Sequence record: OL780484.1
Length of the DNA: 64,000 nt
Reading direction: 5' to 3' (one strand)
From: Escherichia phage vB_EcoM-E33
Part shown: piece by piece, positions 28,291 through 34,851 of the stretch
How the letters are laid out: every line of letters begins with the position of its first letter
How positions within the stretch are numbered: the first letter of the stretch is position 1
Notes under the pieces: model-generated
Seen by the model: only the letters and a program-made list of their open reading frames with translations
What the model was told of the DNA's origin: nothing
The model's database searches: none
Program-made: the position numbers and the translations under genes

Positions 28291-30501
28291 ATGATTATTG
28301 AAACCGAAAAAGAACAAATCATTGGTAATGGTGCTAAGTCCACAGGCTTTACTATTCAGGCATCGCCTAAGGTCTTTAAAATTTTGTCATCAGACCTTTA
28401 TAGTAATAAAGTACGTGCCGTAGTTCGTGAACTAATTACCAACATGATTGATGCCCATATTCTAAATGGTAATAAAGAACGTTGGAAAGTACAGGTTCCT
28501 GGTAAACTAGACCCTCGCTTTGTATGTCGTGATTTCGGTCCGGGTATGAGTGATTTCCAAATTCGTGGTGATGAAAACGAAACAGGTTTGTATAACTCTT
28601 ATTTCGCGTCGTCCAAAACCGCTTCTAACGATTTCATCGGCGGCTTTGGCCTTGGTTCAAAATCTCCGTTCAGTTATACCGAAACGTTTAATATTACCTC
28701 ATGGCACAATGGCGAAGTTCGCGGTTATGTAGCATATATGGATGGTGATGGCCCGCAGATTAAACCTACTTTCGTAGAACCTATGCAGCCAGGTGATAAA
28801 ACAGGTATCGAAATCACGGTTCCTGTTGATGAAGAAGATTTCCGTAAGTTTGAAACTGAAGTTCGTTATATCATGCGGCCTTTCATTGGTCTTGGTGATG
28901 TAGACGGTGTTGAAGTTGATTATTTCCCTGAATTTGACGATTACCATCCTGTAACCACTACAAATTATGGCAGCTTCGAACGTTCAGGACTTTATGCAGT
29001 TTATGGTGGTATTGTTTATCCATTGGATTCTGCCTATAATAAAGGCACATGGATGCGTACTCGCCATGATGTAGTTTATATTAAGTTCCCTATGGGTTCA
29101 CTGGATATTGCTCCGTCTCGTGAAGTGTTGTCTCTTGATAAACGTACGATGGAAAATATTGCAACCCGTATCGAAGCACTGGATGCAGTGGTCTTTAAAA
29201 ACGATACACAGGAATGGGTTGAATCTGATAATCCACGCCATGTTTATCGTGACCTTTCTAACCTTGGTTACAGTGCTCGTGACTATCTTACCAAAAAAGG
29301 TGGAACTAGCCTGTTTACTACAGAAAAATTGACATATGAGAAATTATACCAGCGTTATACCCTTCAAAACGACCTTATTAATTTAGGTGTGGTTTACGAA
29401 GTCGTTTCAGACCCACGTTTGAAACGAATTAAGTCAAGTGGTAATACTTCTTCGGTAGCAGGACTTAGTAATTTATTAGGCATTAATAAGAAAGAAATCC
29501 ATGTTGTTTATGATGATGAAAAAGGTCGTGTGCCATTAGTTCGAGGTCTTTGGGCTCTGGCAATGGACAACAGTGCTTCGGCTAAGAAAATTGTTAAAGA
29601 GAACAATATTCCTAAATACGGAACTGACCTTATTTTTGTCGACCCAAATTCAATGTTGCAAATGCAACAACTTGAAAAGGTTAAAGAACTTTTTAAAGGT
29701 GACACAATTCATTTTTATAAAGTCTCTGAACTGAATAAAATTGTTAAGCCATGGATTCCGGTTACTGTCCGTTCATCAGAACCGCGTCCTAAAACACCGA
29801 GTGCTTATCGTTGGTTCATTAAAGACGGGCGCTGGCAACAAGAGACCATGTATTTGACTGCTGCCGAAGCAGAAGAAATTACAGGTTATGTTCTGTTTGG
29901 CAGTCGTTCTGATATTATGGGAATGGATGAAGCTTATGGTATCTTTGACATCAATACCACTACCATGTGTCGTATGGCTAATTTGATTGGTGCTACCGAA
30001 TTCCATATCATTCGCCCTCAGATTGCCAAAAAGATTAAAAAGTTAGGCCAATGCGAATGCTTGATGGAAGCTACATTAGAAGCTTATGCTGAAGCCTTAG
30101 ACGCGGTAGATGTTGATGACTACCTTGGTAGCAATACTCGAGCTCGGTATTACCTTGAAATCATTGCTAAGTTCCCTCAGCTTAATTTCATGACCAAGTA
30201 TTTCAGTGATAAGCCGGTGACTGAAGCATATACTCGTCTGAGTAATTTCTATGATATATTCCGTTATATGAATTTCGGCGGATATATCACTGATGATAAG
30301 CTTTCCGTTATCAAGAAAATTTGTAACAATACTTTTTTTAAGTTGACTGATAATGCTTCAAGCAACAATGATAAAATGACTGTACAGTTTGAATCTGATT
30401 ACCATTTAGTTTCAGACTACATGTATCGTCGTGGAACATCCATTACCGAGGCTTCTGTAGCTCAAATTGTTAAATTCATGAAAGCCGTGGAAGCGGCTTA
30501 A
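28291..30501 (+). CDS. rIIA: rIIA protein (membrane-associated, GHKL-like N-terminal domain)
   Basis: 736 aa; MIIETEKEQIIGNGAKS… matches T4 rIIA N-terminus as recalled; synteny 39-rIIA-rIIB. Confidence 0.92.
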   Translation: MIIETEKEQIIGNGAKSTGFTIQASPKVFKILSSDLYSNKVRAVVRELITNMIDAHILNGNKERWKVQVPGKLDPRFVCRDFGPGMSDFQIRGDENETGLYNSYFASSKTASNDFIGGFGLGSKSPFSYTETFNITSWHNGEVRGYVAYMDGDGPQIKPTFVEPMQPGDKTGIEITVPVDEEDFRKFETEVRYIMRPFIGLGDVDGVEVDYFPEFDDYHPVTTTNYGSFERSGLYAVYGGIVYPLDSAYNKGTWMRTRHDVVYIKFPMGSLDIAPSREVLSLDKRTMENIATRIEALDAVVFKNDTQEWVESDNPRHVYRDLSNLGYSARDYLTKKGGTSLFTTEKLTYEKLYQRYTLQNDLINLGVVYEVVSDPRLKRIKSSGNTSSVAGLSNLLGINKKEIHVVYDDEKGRVPLVRGLWALAMDNSASAKKIVKENNIPKYGTDLIFVDPNSMLQMQQLEKVKELFKGDTIHFYKVSELNKIVKPWIPVTVRSSEPRPKTPSAYRWFIKDGRWQQETMYLTAAEAEEITGYVLFGSRSDIMGMDEAYGIFDINTTTMCRMANLIGATEFHIIRPQIAKKIKKLGQCECLMEATLEAYAEALDAVDVDDYLGSNTRARYYLEIIAKFPQLNFMTKYFSDKPVTEAYTRLSNFYDIFRYMNFGGYITDDKLSVIKKICNNTFFKLTDNASSNNDKMTVQFESDYHLVSDYMYRRGTSITEASVAQIVKFMKAVEAA

Positions 30502-30515
30502 TCTAAGGAAATATT

Positions 30516-31484
30516 ATGTACAATATTAAGTGTTTGACCTCCGCTGAGCAAGTTGAAATCGCTAAGTTATATATTTCTGGTAATTATACTCAGAATGAGT
30601 TGGCTGACTGGTACAGTGTATCAGTTGATACAATCCGTAAAGTCCTGAAAAATGCTAAAGGAGCTGGACAGGCCCAGGTAGTTATTACCGGAAATATCAA
30701 AGTAACAGTTCCTAACGAGCCTCGTGAAGTTCCCGTTGAAGTTACTATTGGCGGCTCTCGCCCTGAAATTATCTGGAACGCGAGTTCTAAATTCGTATCC
30801 ATCACTGAAGGTCGTACAGTATGGAACACCACTAATAAGAACAAACATTTTGATGCCATCGTACAGGCTCTTAAAGAATCTCGTTTCGATGACGCGATTA
30901 AACTGATTTCCATTAAAGAAGCCGTTAAGGCCTTTGTTAAAGGCAACGTTCGTATTGAAGGTGGACGTCTGGTTTACCAAGGCATTGAATTGCGTTCAGG
31001 GTTGATTGACCGTATTATCACTTCAATGGAAAACGGTGAAGACTTCGAATTCTACCTGCCGTTCCTTGAGAACCTGTTAGAAAACCCAAGCGAAAAAGCT
31101 GTACAACGTTTGTTCGACTTCTTGGTGGCAAACGACATCAAAATTACTGAAGATGGTCACTTTATTACGTGGAAGGTGGTTAACTCCGATTACACCGACT
31201 GCCGTACCGGTACGTTTGATAACTCACCAGGCAAACCGGTTAAAATGCCTCGTTCTCGTGTAAATGACGATGATGAAGTAACCTGTTCAAGTGGTCTGCA
31301 CGTTTGCTCTCGTAGTTATATCAGTCATTTTGGTAACTCAAGCTGTAAAGTGGTTTCATGTAAAGTTAACCCACGTGATGTTGTTAGTATTCCGGTCGAT
31401 TACGGTGATGCTAAAATGCGTGTATGTTATTATGAAGTTCTAGAAGACGTCACCGAACAGTTCGCAAACGAATACAAATACTAA
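30516..31484 (+). CDS. rIIB: rIIB protein
   Basis: 322 aa (T4 312 aa); immediately downstream of rIIA; SD AAGGAAA. Confidence 0.88.
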   Translation: MYNIKCLTSAEQVEIAKLYISGNYTQNELADWYSVSVDTIRKVLKNAKGAGQAQVVITGNIKVTVPNEPREVPVEVTIGGSRPEIIWNASSKFVSITEGRTVWNTTNKNKHFDAIVQALKESRFDDAIKLISIKEAVKAFVKGNVRIEGGRLVYQGIELRSGLIDRIITSMENGEDFEFYLPFLENLLENPSEKAVQRLFDFLVANDIKITEDGHFITWKVVNSDYTDCRTGTFDNSPGKPVKMPRSRVNDDDEVTCSSGLHVCSRSYISHFGNSSCKVVSCKVNPRDVVSIPVDYGDAKMRVCYYEVLEDVTEQFANEYKY

Positions 31485-31521: not shown

Positions 31522-31719
31522 ATGTTAGGTTACCAAGCACGTGTAGTTGAAGAATACGACCAGTTGGTTCTTAAAATTAACGCACTAGAAACCTTTATTG
31601 AAGGTGGTGTTTTTGAAACTCTTGATATCCGTCAACAAGGGTTACTGATTGCACAACTGGATGCGATGGGCGCTTATGCTCATTGTTTAGAGGTTCGTAT
31701 TTCTTATTTCGGTGAGTAA
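31522..31719 (+). CDS. Hypothetical protein (65 aa)
   Basis: SD GAGGAA; preceded by UUCG hairpin. Confidence 0.45.
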   Translation: MLGYQARVVEEYDQLVLKINALETFIEGGVFETLDIRQQGLLIAQLDAMGAYAHCLEVRISYFGE

Positions 31720-31720
31720 A

Positions 31721-32020
31721 ATGATTAATTACCTGAATGTCGGTGAACGTGGTATCAAGATTTCTAATTTGCGTGGATTCCATAAAGCAGGTACTGTTTA
31801 TTGTGCTAAGCTCGTTAAACACCCGGGTGATGTTCATTACGCTTTTCTAGAATGCGATGAGGTGGTCGAAGGCGAATTTCCTTTAGCAGATTCTGATACT
31901 TTAGAACCCGACGACCGAATTTATTACGGTGAACTTCATATTCGAGGCATTTATGGTGAAGACGAACCCGGGACTACTCCGATTGGCAGCGATGCCGACA
32001 TTTACCCTGAAGACATCTGA
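31721..32020 (+). CDS. Hypothetical acidic protein (99 aa)
   Basis: ATG 31721; ORF track 31712..32020. Confidence 0.45.
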   Translation: MINYLNVGERGIKISNLRGFHKAGTVYCAKLVKHPGDVHYAFLECDEVVEGEFPLADSDTLEPDDRIYYGELHIRGIYGEDEPGTTPIGSDADIYPEDI

Positions 32021-32033
32021 TTTAACAGGCGAA

Positions 32034-32510
32034 ATGAAGGTCAAGATTAAGGATACCGTATTGTATTCCTTAAGCCAAGACCCGTCCCAAGATAAGAAAG
32101 AAGTATTGACTCGGTGTGTCATTGCAACGTATGCCGAGTACATGGTTGCTGATTGGTTGAAAGGATATGTTAACAGTGGTCTGGAAGACCATGACGACCC
32201 TTATACCTATGCATGGGATGTTTTAGCTCATCCTATGTATTGTGGACTACGTGTAGAGGTCAAGACCCATCAGTCGGATTCTAAGTGGATTTCCTGCACT
32301 ACAGGATACTCCGGTGACTTCCCTTATGGAACAGGGATTAACCTGGGCCCGCTCTTGAATCATAAAGTTGCAGATTGTATAATTATATTCGACACTTCGG
32401 TAAATGAGGCAGGCGATGTCCTGTTCACTCCTAAGTTCTCTGGTGACAGAGAAGCCATCACAAAGCTAGTCCGTAAGAGCAATTACAACGGCTGGTATCT
32501 CGCCTTATAA
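32034..32510 (+). CDS. Hypothetical protein (158 aa; possibly denB-region gene)
   Basis: First ATG after upstream stop in frame of ORF-track 31929..32510; start uncertain. Confidence 0.4.
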   Translation: MKVKIKDTVLYSLSQDPSQDKKEVLTRCVIATYAEYMVADWLKGYVNSGLEDHDDPYTYAWDVLAHPMYCGLRVEVKTHQSDSKWISCTTGYSGDFPYGTGINLGPLLNHKVADCIIIFDTSVNEAGDVLFTPKFSGDREAITKLVRKSNYNGWYLAL

Positions 32511-32583
32511 ATTTTTTAAATAAGTGTTTACATACACCAAGGATGGTGTTACTATCTTCCTATCAACTTGAGAGGAAAACAAA

Positions 32584-32841
32584 ATGAAATTCTATTACGC
32601 CAAACATAAAATTACCCGTGAGTTTGTATCGTTTTCAACCTTTTCAGATGAAGAAGACTTTTGCATCACTGGTCTGGATTTATCTAAATATGAAACCGAC
32701 CAGCCTTATTTGACCACTCATGACGAGATTCAACGTTTGGTGAACGGTGAGCTAAATAATTCTTACTGCACTCAAATTTACCCTGCTTTGAAAAAAGCTA
32801 TCAATGCTAATCAGATTGAAATCATTGAGGTGGAATTGTGA
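32584..32841 (+). CDS. Hypothetical protein (85 aa), tandem paralog 1
   Basis: MKFYYAKHKIT… ; SD GAGAGGAAAA; early promoter. Confidence 0.5.
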   Translation: MKFYYAKHKITREFVSFSTFSDEEDFCITGLDLSKYETDQPYLTTHDEIQRLVNGELNNSYCTQIYPALKKAINANQIEIIEVEL

Positions 32842-33104
32842 ATATCAAATTATATTACGCTAAACACAAAGTTACGGGTACGGTTGTTGCCGCCATGTAT
32901 GACGCGTCAGGTGAAGGTGATGATGTTACTACAGAGTTATCTCTTTCTGATTGTAAATTTCTCCGTCCCTTAATCGCATCAAAGGAAGATTTAGAAAAGC
33001 TTATTGATGGAAAACTGGATAATGTTGACGGCATAGATATTCTTTATGACCTCCGCACGGCATTGTACAGGGGATTGATTGAGATAAAAGAGGTGGTGTT
33101 TTGA
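32838..33104 (+). CDS. Hypothetical protein (88 aa), tandem paralog 2
   Basis: MNIKLYYAKHKVT… shares N- and C-terminal blocks (…IEIIEVEL / …IEIKEVVF) with upstream gene. Confidence 0.5.
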   Translation: MNIKLYYAKHKVTGTVVAAMYDASGEGDDVTTELSLSDCKFLRPLIASKEDLEKLIDGKLDNVDGIDILYDLRTALYRGLIEIKEVVF

Positions 33105-33249
33105 GTAGCAAAACGTGGTGCCTTATTTGGATGGCCTGTATCCCAGTGATTTGCGTGTGTTTTAGTTTATTGTTGTGGAAATTGGCATAAATCAGTATAC
33201 ATCTCCATTAATCATGATATTATAGACCTATCAACTAATGGAGATGATT

Positions 33250-33360
33250 ATGAAAAACTTACTTAAAGCAATTTGGAACATGTTTGTGTTGTTAATGGTA
33301 TTGAGCATTTTCCCAATCGTTTTTATGATTGACCATGTACGTGTATTCTTTAACTTCTGA
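33250..33360 (+). CDS. Small hydrophobic peptide (36 aa)
   Basis: ATG after SD GGAGATGA; single TM-like segment; unverified. Confidence 0.3.
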   Translation: MKNLLKAIWNMFVLLMVLSIFPIVFMIDHVRVFFNF

Positions 33361-33370
33361 GGAAAATATT

Positions 33371-33583
33371 ATGAAACTTTTTAAAGATGTGGTAGTCGGC
33401 GAGAGCTTTGTATTGCATAATGGCCAACAACTGATTCGCATTTCTCCTTTGCAAGTTGGGACCGAATTACAACCTGTTAATGCTACAGACCTTTATGATT
33501 CAACTAAGCGTTTTTGTGTAGGCCCTAGTGTGCAATGCCTTACTGTTGATGAGTTGATGGCTATTTCTGTTGACGCTGAATAA
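33371..33583 (+). CDS. Hypothetical protein (70 aa)
   Basis: ATG 33371 after SD GAGGAAA. Confidence 0.45.
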   Translation: MKLFKDVVVGESFVLHNGQQLIRISPLQVGTELQPVNATDLYDSTKRFCVGPSVQCLTVDELMAISVDAE

Positions 33584-33593
33584 GGAAAATATT

Positions 33594-33938
33594 ATGTCTA
33601 AATTATTTTTTGGTAATCGCAACATTATGTTCTTTGAGCAACTCAGTCTTAAAGAGGCATTGAAGGCCTTCAATCAAGAACTGGTTACTGGGCTAGATTC
33701 AAAAACTATGGCAAGTGCGGATTTCGTTTTCGTTCAAGACCCGGATACAGGTTTTTATCGATTCATCAAATTCCGTATGAGCATGGACCCTGACTATCGT
33801 AGTGCTTACTACGTGAGTTATGAAAACGTTATCAAAGAATTACGTGATACCTATGGACGCGCTTTGAACCCACTGAACAAGGTTTATAATGCTTCTTTTT
33901 ATACGAGCGGATTTATTTTAGAACAGCTACAAAAATAG
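33594..33938 (+). CDS. Hypothetical protein (114 aa)
   Basis: ATG 33594 after SD AAGGAAA. Confidence 0.45.
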   Translation: MSKLFFGNRNIMFFEQLSLKEALKAFNQELVTGLDSKTMASADFVFVQDPDTGFYRFIKFRMSMDPDYRSAYYVSYENVIKELRDTYGRALNPLNKVYNASFYTSGFILEQLQK

Positions 33939-34015
33939 TTTACAACCTCGAGAATCATGTTATAATGGTTCTCGTTGACTGGATAACAAAACATTAATCT
34001 ACTGAGGAAATTGAT

Positions 34016-34465
34016 ATGAATACTTATATGACTCGCCGTAACGTTCTGTCTGCTGGTGCTACTACTGTTGCTTATGTTAAGAACGGTGAATACCAAAATG
34101 GCAAACCTTCTAAAGAAATCTCTGCTCAGCCAGGCTTCTACTTCTTTGTTAAAGGTGAAGCGGATTCTCGTGTCGTAGCTGCACGCTTTTATGTCGGTAA
34201 TCAACGTTCGGCTCAAGGTCTCGATGGTATCGTGGCTAACATTCGTAAGAAACGTTCTCAATCAGCCCGCACTATGGCAGTGAACGGTGTTGTGTATGAA
34301 GTTCTTTATGTACCAGCTTCTAAGATGAAACCTCTGACTACAGGTTTTGGTAAGGGTCAAATTGCAATGGCTTTCACTCGTAATCATAGTTCCGACCTCC
34401 AGACACTGGAAGAAATGAACCGTATGTTGGCTGATAACTTTAAATTCATCCTGCAGGCTTACTAA
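34016..34465 (+). CDS. Hypothetical protein (149 aa)
   Basis: Early-type promoter (GTTTAC…TGtTATAAT) and SD GAGGAAA. Confidence 0.5.
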
Positions 34466-34552
34466 TGAGTAATTTCCATAACGAGCATGTGATGCAGTTC
34501 TATCGTAACAATCTTAAAACTAAAGGCGTCTTCGGACGCTAATGAGGAAAAT

Positions 34553-34714
34553 ATGGTTATCCTAGTTTTTATTGAACTTATTATGGCTATAGTCTGTTCA
34601 GTTTGCTTCTTTTTAGGAGTGTGGGCCCCTGGTCCGATATTCTTAAGTTTTCTGCTTATTGGTTGGGTTCTTTCTACTTTTGTCGGTTTACTTAAGACGA
34701 TTAAAAATGATTAA
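34553..34714 (+). CDS. Small membrane protein (53 aa)
   Basis: ATG after SD GAGGAAAA; two hydrophobic segments. Confidence 0.4.
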   Translation: MVILVFIELIMAIVCSVCFFLGVWAPGPIFLSFLLIGWVLSTFVGLLKTIKND

Positions 34715-34847
34715 TAAAATCCTGGGCTACTCGTTAGCCCTTGCTGCTTTATTAGTAGCGCTGTATTACGGAGTAATGTTCGGACTTATCCAAGTTGTGC
34801 TTTTTATTTCCGATGTTATTATGGCTATTCATTCACTAGTATGGTAA
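34707..34847 (+). CDS. Small membrane protein (46 aa)
   Basis: ATG overlapping upstream stop; hydrophobic; ORF track 34659..34847. Confidence 0.35.
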   Translation: MINKILGYSLALAALLVALYYGVMFGLIQVVLFISDVIMAIHSLVW

Positions 34848-34851
34848 AATT

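What the first reader, a model, noticed from the sequence alone, without database searches (positions are those of the whole stretch)
32584..33104. Second tandem paralog pair (85 and 88 aa) beginning M(N)…YYAKHK
Adjacent small genes with shared N-terminal (FYYAKHK/LYYAKHK) and C-terminal (IEIIEVEL/IEIKEVVF) blocks; the second uses a GTG start overlapping the first gene's stop. Small duplicated early proteins are candidate host-takeover factors.
Basis: seen in the sequence. Interest (0 to 1): 0.35.

Follow-up and report, generated by a model that had tools for sequence, protein, structure and literature searches.

The report
Two divergent copies of T-even accessory gene
Two adjacent small genes of a T4-like coliphage are real but very old relatives (35% identical) from an uncharacterised phage-only family; one was brought in recently by recombination exactly at the other's start codon, and their function is still unknown.

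Summary
ORFs 32584-32841 (A, 85 aa) and 32838-33104 (B, 88 aa, GTG start in a GTGA overlap) are homologous over their full length (35% identity, E 1e-13). Both match PHROG 2390 end to end and have the same predicted β-β-β-α-β-α-β fold.

The window is a Dhakavirus (T4-like). The pair lies in the early rIIB-denB-ndd-gene 52 accessory region. It is not a recent local duplication. B is the resident Dhakavirus/Gaprivervirus form. A resembles Tequatrovirus homologues more (about 55%) and occurs in only two GenBank phages (LHE83, FB) plus one metagenomic relative. Single-copy relatives lack exactly the A ORF, so the junction sits on B's start codon.

A 410-nt tract holding the promoter and A is 100% identical among the three carriers, while the flanks differ by 1-9%. 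That indicates recent recombinational spread. Both copies are under purifying selection (dN/dS 0.05-0.14).

A, B and a T4 Ndd.6-like 29-aa membrane peptide are linked by NTGA overlaps behind one early-type promoter.

No Pfam, NCBIfam, PADLOC or solved-structure relative exists. The function is inferred only: probably a small acidic early protein that binds a host or defence target. T4 lacks the gene. This is an ordinary accessory-gene polymorphism of moderate-to-low interest.

The parts
32527..32555 (+). Early-type promoter (TTTACA, 17-nt spacer, TACTAT, with TG upstream of the -10). The spacer contains the hairpin ACACCA-AGGA-TGGTGT (32534-32549).
   Evidence: Consensus scan. It fits the T4/PST PeSL promoter consensus TTTACW-N17-TAYWAT (PMC4122927). 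The promoter is conserved in LHE83, FB, IME08, L006, L007 and L029. Activity was not measured.
32570..32576 (+). Shine-Dalgarno-like GAGAGGA, 8 nt upstream of A's ATG
   Evidence: Read from the sequence.
32584..32841 (+). Gene A: 85 aa, pI 4.7, PHROG 2390 family, the 'A type' that is closest to Tequatrovirus homologues.
   Evidence: It is 100% identical in LHE83 and FB only. It is 84% and 74% identical to the metagenomic proteins P0001 and P0002. dN/dS is 0.06-0.11. AF2 pLDDT is 92.7.
32827..32833 (+). GAGGTGG, a Shine-Dalgarno sequence for B that is encoded inside A's last codons (E-V-E)
   Evidence: Sequence. In the A-only relative L006 the same element precedes the Ndd.6-like ORF.
32838..33104 (+). 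Gene B: 88 aa, pI 4.7, PHROG 2390 family. It is the resident Dhakavirus/Gaprivervirus type. Its GTG start overlaps A's stop as GTGA.
   Evidence: It is at least 80% identical in 62 phage records, for example Bp7 at 97.7% and IME08 at 95.5%. dN/dS is 0.05-0.14. AF2 pLDDT is 89.4 with the same fold order as A.
33101..33190 (+). 29-aa hydrophobic peptide MSSKTWCLIWMACIPVICVCFSLLLWKLA, the orthologue of T4 Ndd.6. Its TTG start overlaps B's stop as TTGA.
   Evidence: Translation. It matches phrog_8851 at E 2.6e-16, the same family as T4 Ndd.6. The NTGA overlap with the family gene is present in all 12 loci displayed and in the junction sequence of every E. coli T-even-type locus listed.
32486..32895 (+). 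Tract that is 100% identical in the window, LHE83 and FB: the 3' end of denB, the promoter, gene A and the first 57 nt of B. It is interpreted as the recently exchanged segment.
   Evidence: 0 differences here, against 13-16 differences per 266 nt in B (window versus either carrier) and divergence of 1-9% in the flanking segments. The carriers share derived variants across 32511-32894 relative to all B-only Dhakaviruses.

Best explanation
A and B are two anciently diverged versions of one accessory gene family of T-even-type phages (PHROG 2390, the RB69 ORF270c type). The family is always the first gene behind the early promoter downstream of denB.

Shown:
- B is the version normally found at this position in Dhakavirus and Gaprivervirus.
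- A is a different version that sits exactly in front of B's start codon. A has therefore taken over B's promoter, ribosome-binding site and ATG.
- B now starts at a GTG (an ATG in the metagenomic relative L007) that overlaps A's TGA. It is preceded by a Shine-Dalgarno sequence encoded in A's last codons.
- B's stop in turn overlaps the start of an Ndd.6-like 29-aa membrane peptide.

Inferred from the anatomy: the three ORFs form one early transcript and are translated by coupling.

Inferred from comparison:
- The A-B arrangement is old. It is shared with a relative whose DNA is about 77% identical, and both copies are under purifying selection.
- In Dhakaviruses it is a recent import. It is spreading by homologous recombination through the 3' end of denB and the 5' end of B.

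Function, which is inference only: each protein is a small, soluble, acidic single-domain protein made immediately after infection. It most likely binds a host or host-defence component. The conserved terminal strands would form the core, and the variable β2-β3 region and second helix would form the specificity surface. Carrying both versions would then widen the range of targets or host variants covered.
For: Homology and family:
-.

Genomic setting:
- Dhakavirus identity and the rIIA/rIIB/denB/ndd/gene 52 context.

Precise junction at B's ATG:
- IME08 reads ...ACAAAATGGATATC, whereas the window reads ...ACAAAATG[A]...GAATTGTGAATATC.

Distribution:
- A occurs only in LHE83 and FB among 50,697 phage records.
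- B is at least 80% identical in 62 records.
- An A-B pair with an ATGA overlap occurs in L007, and A alone in L006.
- No further A-B junctions were found in IMG/VR or the JGI metagenomes.

Selection:
- dN/dS is 0.05-0.14 within each type.
- A and B of the window versus L007 have similar dS, 0.84 and 0.70.

Recent spread:
- 0 differences in 410 nt among the carriers, against 1-9% in the flanking segments. The carriers share one haplotype across 32511-32894.

Expression signals:
- Promoter: with the consensus from PMC4122927.
- NTGA overlaps and the embedded GAGGTGG.
- Ndd.6 orthology.

Accessory status:
- The gene is absent from T4 and is a pseudogene in L013.

Neighbourhood rich in host-interaction and counter-defence genes:
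- A Sequestin/DenB.1 homologue lies at 31522-31719 (function from bioRxiv 10.1101/2025.07.12.664507).
- A Dmd-like gene is coupled downstream of the family gene in distant relatives.
- DenB is a retron trigger (PMC12405507).

Conservation profile:
- The terminal strands are conserved and the middle is variable.
Against: - No experiment or annotated homologue supports any biochemical function.
- There is no Pfam, NCBIfam or PADLOC hit.
- The argument from neighbouring genes is weak, because the region also holds genes unrelated to defence.
- Promoter activity, the GTG start and translational coupling are all read from sequence and were not measured.
- The identical tract is short. Mosaic T4-like genomes contain other near-identical segments, for example 34466-34851, which is 99.5% identical between the window and LHE83.
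- The origin of the first A-B pair cannot be decided from the data: either juxtaposition of two alleles, or an in-register duplication followed by divergence and loss.
Confidence: 0.5

Rival explanations
1. A recent in-situ tandem duplication in this phage, with the two copies still redundant.
For: The two genes are adjacent, share a family and orientation, and have overlapping stop and start codons.
Against: The copies share only 35% amino-acid identity and their synonymous sites are saturated (pS 0.77). A is closer to Tequatrovirus proteins (53-55%) than to B. B-only relatives that are 95-97% identical in their flanks lack A precisely. The same diverged pair exists in L007, whose DNA is only about 77% identical.
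Confidence: 0.03
2. The origin was an ancient in-register tandem duplication. Unequal recombination occurred between the ATGA at the gene's start and the ATGA at its stop, where the Ndd.6 start overlaps. The downstream copy (B) then evolved fast, and lineages lost one copy or the other: A in most Dhaka/Gapriverviruses, B in the L006 lineage. This rival concerns origin only and is compatible with the rest of the best explanation.
For: In the A-only locus L006 both gene boundaries carry ATGA (AAAATGAAATTT... and ...GAGCTATGAGCAGC), so a 4-nt microhomology would give exactly the observed ATGA-overlapped pair. B's first codons (ATG AAT ATC AAA TTA TAT TAC) are collinear with A's (ATG AAA TTT AAA TTC TAT TAT). 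A and B of the window versus L007 have similar dS.
Against: It needs several independent and precise losses. All B-only phages have Asp2 (GAT) whereas pair-borne B has Asn2 (AAT), which fits a junction-created change equally well. Within Dhakavirus, the identical tract and the shared haplotype argue for import rather than retention.
Confidence: 0.35
3. The family protein works together with the translationally coupled Ndd.6-like membrane peptide, for example as a cytoplasmic partner of a small inner-membrane complex affecting the envelope, exclusion or lipid metabolism. A and B would then be alternative partners.
For: The NTGA overlap with the Ndd.6-like ORF is conserved in every E. coli T-even-type locus examined. 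The peptide is conserved (phrog_8851). The T4 deletion saΔ9, which covers 52.1 to denB, abolishes the stimulation of phospholipid synthesis by an unknown gene (PMC6071114).
Against: T4 keeps ndd.6 without the family gene. In more distant T4-like phages the coupled downstream gene is Dmd-like or is ndd itself, and no peptide is present. The peptide is nearly the same behind A-type and B-type genes, so the A/B divergence is not explained by co-evolution with it.
Confidence: 0.15
4. The protein modulates the neighbouring endonuclease DenB, or masks its side-effects, for example by preventing DenB-triggered retron defence. Alternatively it is a small-molecule 'sponge' like Sequestin, Tad or Acb.
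For: The gene is invariably the first one after denB across diverged T4-like phages. DenB triggers Retron-Eco2 (PMC12405507). The protein is under 100 aa, is made early and lies two genes from a Sequestin sponge. Conserved Lys/His/Tyr residues sit on strand 1.
Confidence: 0.1

Closest known systems
PHROG 2390 / RB69 ORF270c-type hypothetical proteins of Tevenvirinae (T6 EcT6_00269, IME08 gp249, LHE83 WEY10200/WEY10201)
   Same: Both A and B match the family profile over its full length. They occupy the same position immediately downstream of denB and have the same size (81-88 aa).
   Different: Nearly all phages carry a single copy. Here two versions that are 35% identical sit in tandem, which was seen otherwise only in LHE83, FB and one metagenomic contig. 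No member of the family has a known function.
PeSL-mediated modular shuffling in the hyperplastic regions of T4-like phages (Arbiol et al. 2010, PMC2839356; Comeau et al. 2014, PMC4122927)
   Same: This is a small non-essential ORF behind an early promoter of the TTTACW-N17-TAYWAT type, in a plastic region. It is present or absent between close relatives and shows signs of recombinational exchange.
   Different: Only the left boundary lies in a promoter cassette. The right boundary is the start codon of the resident homologue (an NTGA overlap), not a second PeSL. The recent spread appears to use ordinary homologous flanks (the 3' end of denB and the 5' end of B).
Small early counter-defence proteins of T-even phages in the same region (Sequestin/DenB.1; Dmd)
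   Same: Early expression, fewer than 100 aa, accessory status and patchy distribution. The family gene is two genes away from a Sequestin homologue, and in distant relatives it is translationally coupled to a Dmd-like gene.
   Different: There is no sequence or structural similarity to either protein, and no functional test. The resemblance rests on context only.

Membership tests
PHROG 2390 (uncharacterised T-even accessory protein) | Significant full-length match to the family profile | tested here: met
   A matches at E 2e-31 (residues 1-85 against profile positions 3-87 of 87). B matches at E 2.1e-36 (residues 1-88 against positions 1-87 of 87).
PHROG 2390 (uncharacterised T-even accessory protein) | Conserved genomic position: the first gene after denB, behind an early-type promoter | tested here: met
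   Seen in the window, LHE83, FB, IME08, T6, L005-L007, L026 and L029.
Recent tandem duplicate pair | The two copies are each other's closest relatives and show low synonymous divergence | tested here: not met
   A and B are 33-35% identical with pS 0.77, which is saturated. A is 53-55% identical to Tequatrovirus proteins and 74-84% to P0002 and P0001. B is 80-98% identical to single-copy Dhaka/Gaprivervirus genes.
T4 early (σ70-dependent) transcription unit / PeSL cassette | A promoter matching TTTACW-N17-TAYWAT directly upstream, with no terminator between the ORFs | tested here: met
   TTTACA-17-TACTAT with TG lies at 32527-32555. The scan reported no terminator-like site between 32555 and 33190. 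The consensus comes from PMC4122927. The scan is consensus-only, and promoter-like sites are not enriched over shuffles in this AT-rich region (11 found against 9.9 expected).
T4 early (σ70-dependent) transcription unit / PeSL cassette | Transcript present within the first minutes of infection | not testable with these tools
   This needs RNA-seq or primer extension.
Known anti-CRISPR or immune-signal sponge families (AcrIC8; Tad1/Tad2/Acb2/Sequestin) | Sequence or fold similarity to a characterised member | tested here: not met
Known anti-CRISPR or immune-signal sponge families (AcrIC8; Tad1/Tad2/Acb2/Sequestin) | A homo-oligomer with ligand pockets at its interfaces | not testable with these tools
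   No multimer or ligand modelling was available.
Anti-phage defence system component | Match to PADLOC models | tested here: not met
   No hits at E <= 1.

The most novel reading that the evidence does not exclude
PHROG 2390 is an unrecognised family of immediate-early counter-defence or host-targeting proteins with a fold not yet represented among solved structures. It would exist as strongly diverged 'specificity alleles' (A type, B type, Tequatrovirus type, Mosigvirus type). The promoter-plus-A cassette would currently be sweeping through Dhakaviruses because stacking two alleles extends the range of host immune variants, or of DenB-triggered systems such as retrons, that the phage can overcome.
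Probability: 0.15. Interest if true: 0.6.

Novelty: new member of a known kind. Interest (0 to 1): 0.3.

Why it matters
As it stands, this is a well-documented small case of how T4-like phages remodel their accessory early regions. A homologous but diverged gene has been slotted in exactly at a start codon, so the promoter, ribosome-binding sites and translational coupling all remain intact. The new segment is now spreading among close relatives by recombination.

The practical value is a clean natural experiment. Near-isogenic phages exist with B only, with A+B, with A only, and with neither (T4). This makes the family an easy target for plating tests on E. coli diversity panels or defence-system libraries. 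If a phenotype appears, it would assign a function to a family present in more than 650 sequenced T-even-type phages, many of which are used for phage therapy.

Tried and rejected
- Pfam, NCBIfam and PADLOC scans of A and B gave no meaningful hit. The only match was HscB at E 0.17.
- The profile search against PDB sequences returned only DARPin or compositional matches with no domain passing threshold.
- Foldseek against BFVD found only uncharacterised T4-like phage proteins. The afdb50 library was unavailable.
- The exhaustive HMMER search of 1.84 billion representatives found 21 hits. All were small phage proteins, apart from four long repeat proteins (two inspected) that match through LVNGxL-like repeats and are spurious.
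- A second iteration with a broader profile found 24 proteins, all named 'hypothetical' and with no domain fusions.
- Literature searches for RB69ORF270c, DUF5376 and phrog_2390 returned nothing. Searches for ndd.6, LHE83 and vB_EcoM_FB found no functional information on this family.
- A degenerate pattern for the A-B junction found no match in IMG/VR or the JGI metagenomes.
- The RNA hairpin over A's Shine-Dalgarno sequence is weak (ΔG -5.9 kcal/mol, z = -1.9) and is not claimed.
- Recent duplication was rejected on divergence. Pseudogenisation of B because of its GTG start was rejected on dN/dS 0.08-0.14 between pair-bearing phages.

Full report
**1. What is there**

The window is a T4-like coliphage of the genus Dhakavirus. 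A 2.6-kb stretch around the finding is 96-97% identical to Escherichia phages vB_EcoM_FB and LHE83, and 91-96% identical (over the 91% it shares) to IME08, AnYang, MX01 and others.

Gene order around the finding:

| Feature | Coordinates | Evidence |
|---|---|---|
| rIIA | 28291-30501 | |
| rIIB | 30516-31484 | |
| DenB.1/Sequestin homologue | 31522-31719 | PF21825, E 8e-20 |
| DUF7418 gene | 31712-32020 | |
| denB | to 32510 | phrog_1360, E 3e-89 |
| The pair (A, B) | 32584-33104 | this finding |
| Several small ORFs | 33105-34015 | |
| ndd | 34016-34465 | PF06591, E 5e-69 |
| Gene 52 | from 34852 | |

This is the classical early, non-essential rIIB-denB-ndd-52 region of T4 (T4 annotation).

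**2.

- ORF A is 32584-32841 (ATG, 85 aa). ORF B is 32838-33104 (88 aa).
- B's frame has a stop at 32826-32828, so GTG 32838 is the only canonical start ahead of the conserved N-terminus. It overlaps A's TGA as GTGA.
- BLASTP gives 35% identity over 84 residues at E 1e-13.
- The alignment score lies 19 SD above shuffles. With both conserved termini removed it is still 8.6 SD above.
- Both proteins match phrog_2390 end to end.
- Both are acidic (pI 4.7) with no hydrophobic segment.
- AlphaFold2 models are confident (pLDDT 92.7 and 89.4) and share the element order β-β-β-α-β-α-β.

**3. It is not a local duplication**

- B is the normal occupant of this position in Dhakavirus and Gaprivervirus. 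It is at least 80% identical in 62 GenBank phages (Bp7 97.7%, IME08 95.5%, VR-type phages).
- A is found at 100% identity only in LHE83 and FB among 50,697 phage records. The next best matches are Tequatrovirus proteins (T6 and many others) at 44-58%.
- The big protein collection holds two closer relatives from metagenomes: P0001 (84%) and P0002 (74%).
- T4 has no member. Its denB is followed directly by ndd.6.
- In the alignment with IME08, the single-copy phage lacks exactly the A ORF. IME08 reads ...GAGAACAAAATGGATATCAAA. The window reads ...GGAAAACAAAATG-[A]-GAATTGTGAATATCAAA.
- A has therefore taken over B's promoter, ribosome-binding site and ATG. B's first codon became GTG, and its second changed from GAT to AAT. 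That A is the last base of A's TGA.
- All single-copy B genes start MDIK. Only pair-borne B genes start MNIK.

**4. The arrangement is old but rare**

- The contig carrying P0001 (L007, about 77% DNA identity to the window) has the same A-B pair. It is joined by an ATGA overlap and followed by the same small peptide gene.
- The contig carrying P0002 (L006, 173 kb) has A alone.
- A profile search of all fetched loci found two copies only in the window, LHE83 and L007. FB, fetched afterwards, carries the same pair.
- A degenerate pattern for the junction found nothing in IMG/VR or the JGI metagenomes.
- Between the window and L007, A has dN/dS 0.09 (dS 0.84) and B has dN/dS 0.14 (dS 0.70). Within each type all comparisons give 0.05-0.14. 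Both copies are therefore maintained by selection, including where they coexist.
- A versus B is saturated at synonymous sites.

**5. Recent movement within Dhakavirus**

- Among the window, LHE83 and FB, the segment 32486-32895 has no differences at all. It covers the last 25 nt of denB, the intergenic promoter, all of A and the first 57 nt of B.
- By contrast the rest of B, denB, rIIB and the downstream genes differ by 1-9%. For example, B has 13-16 differences per 266 nt between the window and either other carrier.
- The three carriers also share a set of derived variants across 32511-32894 relative to every B-only Dhakavirus examined.
- Their flanks are mosaic in conflicting ways. The window is nearest to FB in rIIB, whereas LHE83 is nearest to FB in B.
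- I read this as a recent import of a tract of about 0.4 kb from an A-B-bearing relative, passed on by homologous recombination through the 3' end of denB and the 5' end of B.
- How the first A-B pair arose cannot be settled. One possibility is illegitimate joining of an A-type and a B-type locus at ATG(A/G). The other is an ancient in-register duplication between the ATGA at the gene's start and the ATGA at its stop, followed by rapid divergence of B and differential loss.

**6. Expression logic (inferred from sequence)**

- Directly upstream lies TTTACA-N17-TACTAT with a TG extension (32527-32555). This matches the promoter consensus reported for PeSL cassettes of the T4/PST group, TTTACW-N17-TAYWAT (PMC4122927).
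- Similar promoters follow at 33196-33223 and 33939-33966. The pair is therefore the promoter-proximal part of a short early unit.
- A has its own Shine-Dalgarno sequence (GAGAGGA).
- A's last codons (GAG GTG GAA) encode GAGGTGG seven bases ahead of B's GTG. B's last codons encode the same element ahead of a TTG that overlaps B's TGA.
- That TTG opens a 29-aa hydrophobic ORF (33101-33190, MSSKTWCLIWMACIPVICVCFSLLLWKLA). It is the orthologue of T4 Ndd.6 (phrog_8851; E 2.6e-16 for the window peptide, 1.6e-17 for T4 Ndd.6).
- The NTGA overlap between the family gene and the next ORF is present in every locus whose junction was examined.
- In the A-only phage L006 the ORF behind A's GAGGTGG...ATGA is the Ndd.6-like gene. 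In the pair, B therefore occupies exactly the translational slot that the peptide gene has elsewhere. This explains why the junction is expression-competent.
It forms the last β-strand and also carries the downstream Shine-Dalgarno sequence.

**7. Function**

Nothing known matches.

- Pfam, NCBIfam and PADLOC give no hits.
- An exhaustive HMMER search of 1.84 billion representatives gave 21 hits, all small proteins except four long repeat proteins; the two of these that were inspected are spurious.
- A wider profile found only 'hypothetical' proteins of Escherichia, Klebsiella and Enterobacter T4-like phages, with no fusions.
- BFVD returned only uncharacterised proteins of T4-like phages, including Citrobacter Merlin, Aeromonas 44RR2.8t and Serratia PS2.
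- No paper mentions the family.

What can be said from context:

- The gene is accessory. It is absent from T4 and is a pseudogene in L013.
- It is always the first gene behind the promoter after denB, even in distant relatives.
- It sits among host-interaction genes. These include the Sequestin/DenB.1 anti-Thoeris sponge (bioRxiv 10.1101/2025.07.12.664507), DenB, which triggers Retron-Eco2 (PMC12405507), and ndd. In distant relatives a Dmd-like gene lies directly downstream, ATGA-coupled in L026.
- Conservation is concentrated in the terminal strands, Pro41 and the Gly55/Asn59 turn. The β2-β3 region and helix 2 vary between types.

My best guess, stated as inference, is a small early binding protein aimed at a variable host or defence target, with A and B as different specificity versions.

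The alternatives are a partner of the Ndd.6-like peptide, a DenB modulator, or a nucleotide sponge. They are less likely for these reasons:

- T4 keeps ndd.6 and denB without this gene.
- The downstream partner changes in distant phages.
- No fold similarity to known sponges was found.

**8. Verdict**

The 'tandem paralogue' description is right in the sense of homology. The implied local duplication is wrong, and the host-takeover idea remains an untested possibility.

The feature is a rare copy-number and allele variant of a widespread, uncharacterised T-even accessory family. It has a tidy recombination history, is of moderate-to-low interest, and is easy to test experimentally.

Noticed in passing
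window 31522-31719 (+): This 65-aa ORF matches PF21825 (crAss001_48/'Sequestin') at E 8e-20. It is the homologue of T4 DenB.1/Y16O, which was recently shown to be a 3'cADPR sponge that blocks Thoeris (bioRxiv 10.1101/2025.07.12.664507).
   Followed up: partly
window 31712-32020 and 31929-32510 (+): The DUF7418 gene overlaps the 5' end of the denB ORF by tens of bases in another frame: about 70 nt if denB starts at the ATG at 31953. The same overlap is called in the metagenomic relatives L005, L007 and L026. GenBank annotations of the denB start disagree, at 158-200 aa.
   Followed up: no
window 32534-32549 (+): A perfect 6-bp hairpin, ACACCA-AGGA-TGGTGT, lies inside the 17-nt spacer of the early-type promoter upstream of gene A. 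B-only Dhakaviruses have one loop change (AGGA to TGGA).
   Followed up: no
window 32584-32600 (+): Gene A of the window, LHE83 and FB lacks two codons (MKF-YY against MKFKFYY) relative to P0001, P0002 and all Tequatrovirus-type members. This looks like a 6-nt slippage deletion in an AAATTY repeat.
   Followed up: no
window 33101-33190 (+): This unlisted 29-aa ORF (TTG start, TTGA overlap with B) is the orthologue of T4 Ndd.6 (phrog_8851). PHROG and GenBank call it 'outer membrane protein', but it looks like a single Cys/Trp-rich transmembrane helix.
   Followed up: partly
L013 2468-2752 (IMGVR_UViG_3300029310_000125): The family gene is split by an in-frame stop codon at 2603-2605, so this metagenomic T4-like contig apparently carries a pseudogene.
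   Followed up: no
L026 2746-2940; L028 282-485: In more distant T4-like phages the gene following the family gene is Dmd-like (PF17587, the antitoxin against RnlA/LsoA) instead of Ndd.6-like. It is ATGA-coupled in L026.
   Followed up: partly
phage collection: tblastn reports 7 records (query A) and 5 records (query B) with two separate matching places. Only LHE83 and FB were identified. The others could be further tandem pairs or terminal redundancy of the record.
   Followed up: no
window 33196-33223 and 33203-33244 (+): The next early-type promoter (TATACA-N16-TATTAT) lies within a 9-bp inverted repeat, TCTCCATTA...TAATGGAGA. The repeat also covers the Shine-Dalgarno sequence of the following 40-aa membrane ORF (33238-33360, phrog_3098).
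   Followed up: no
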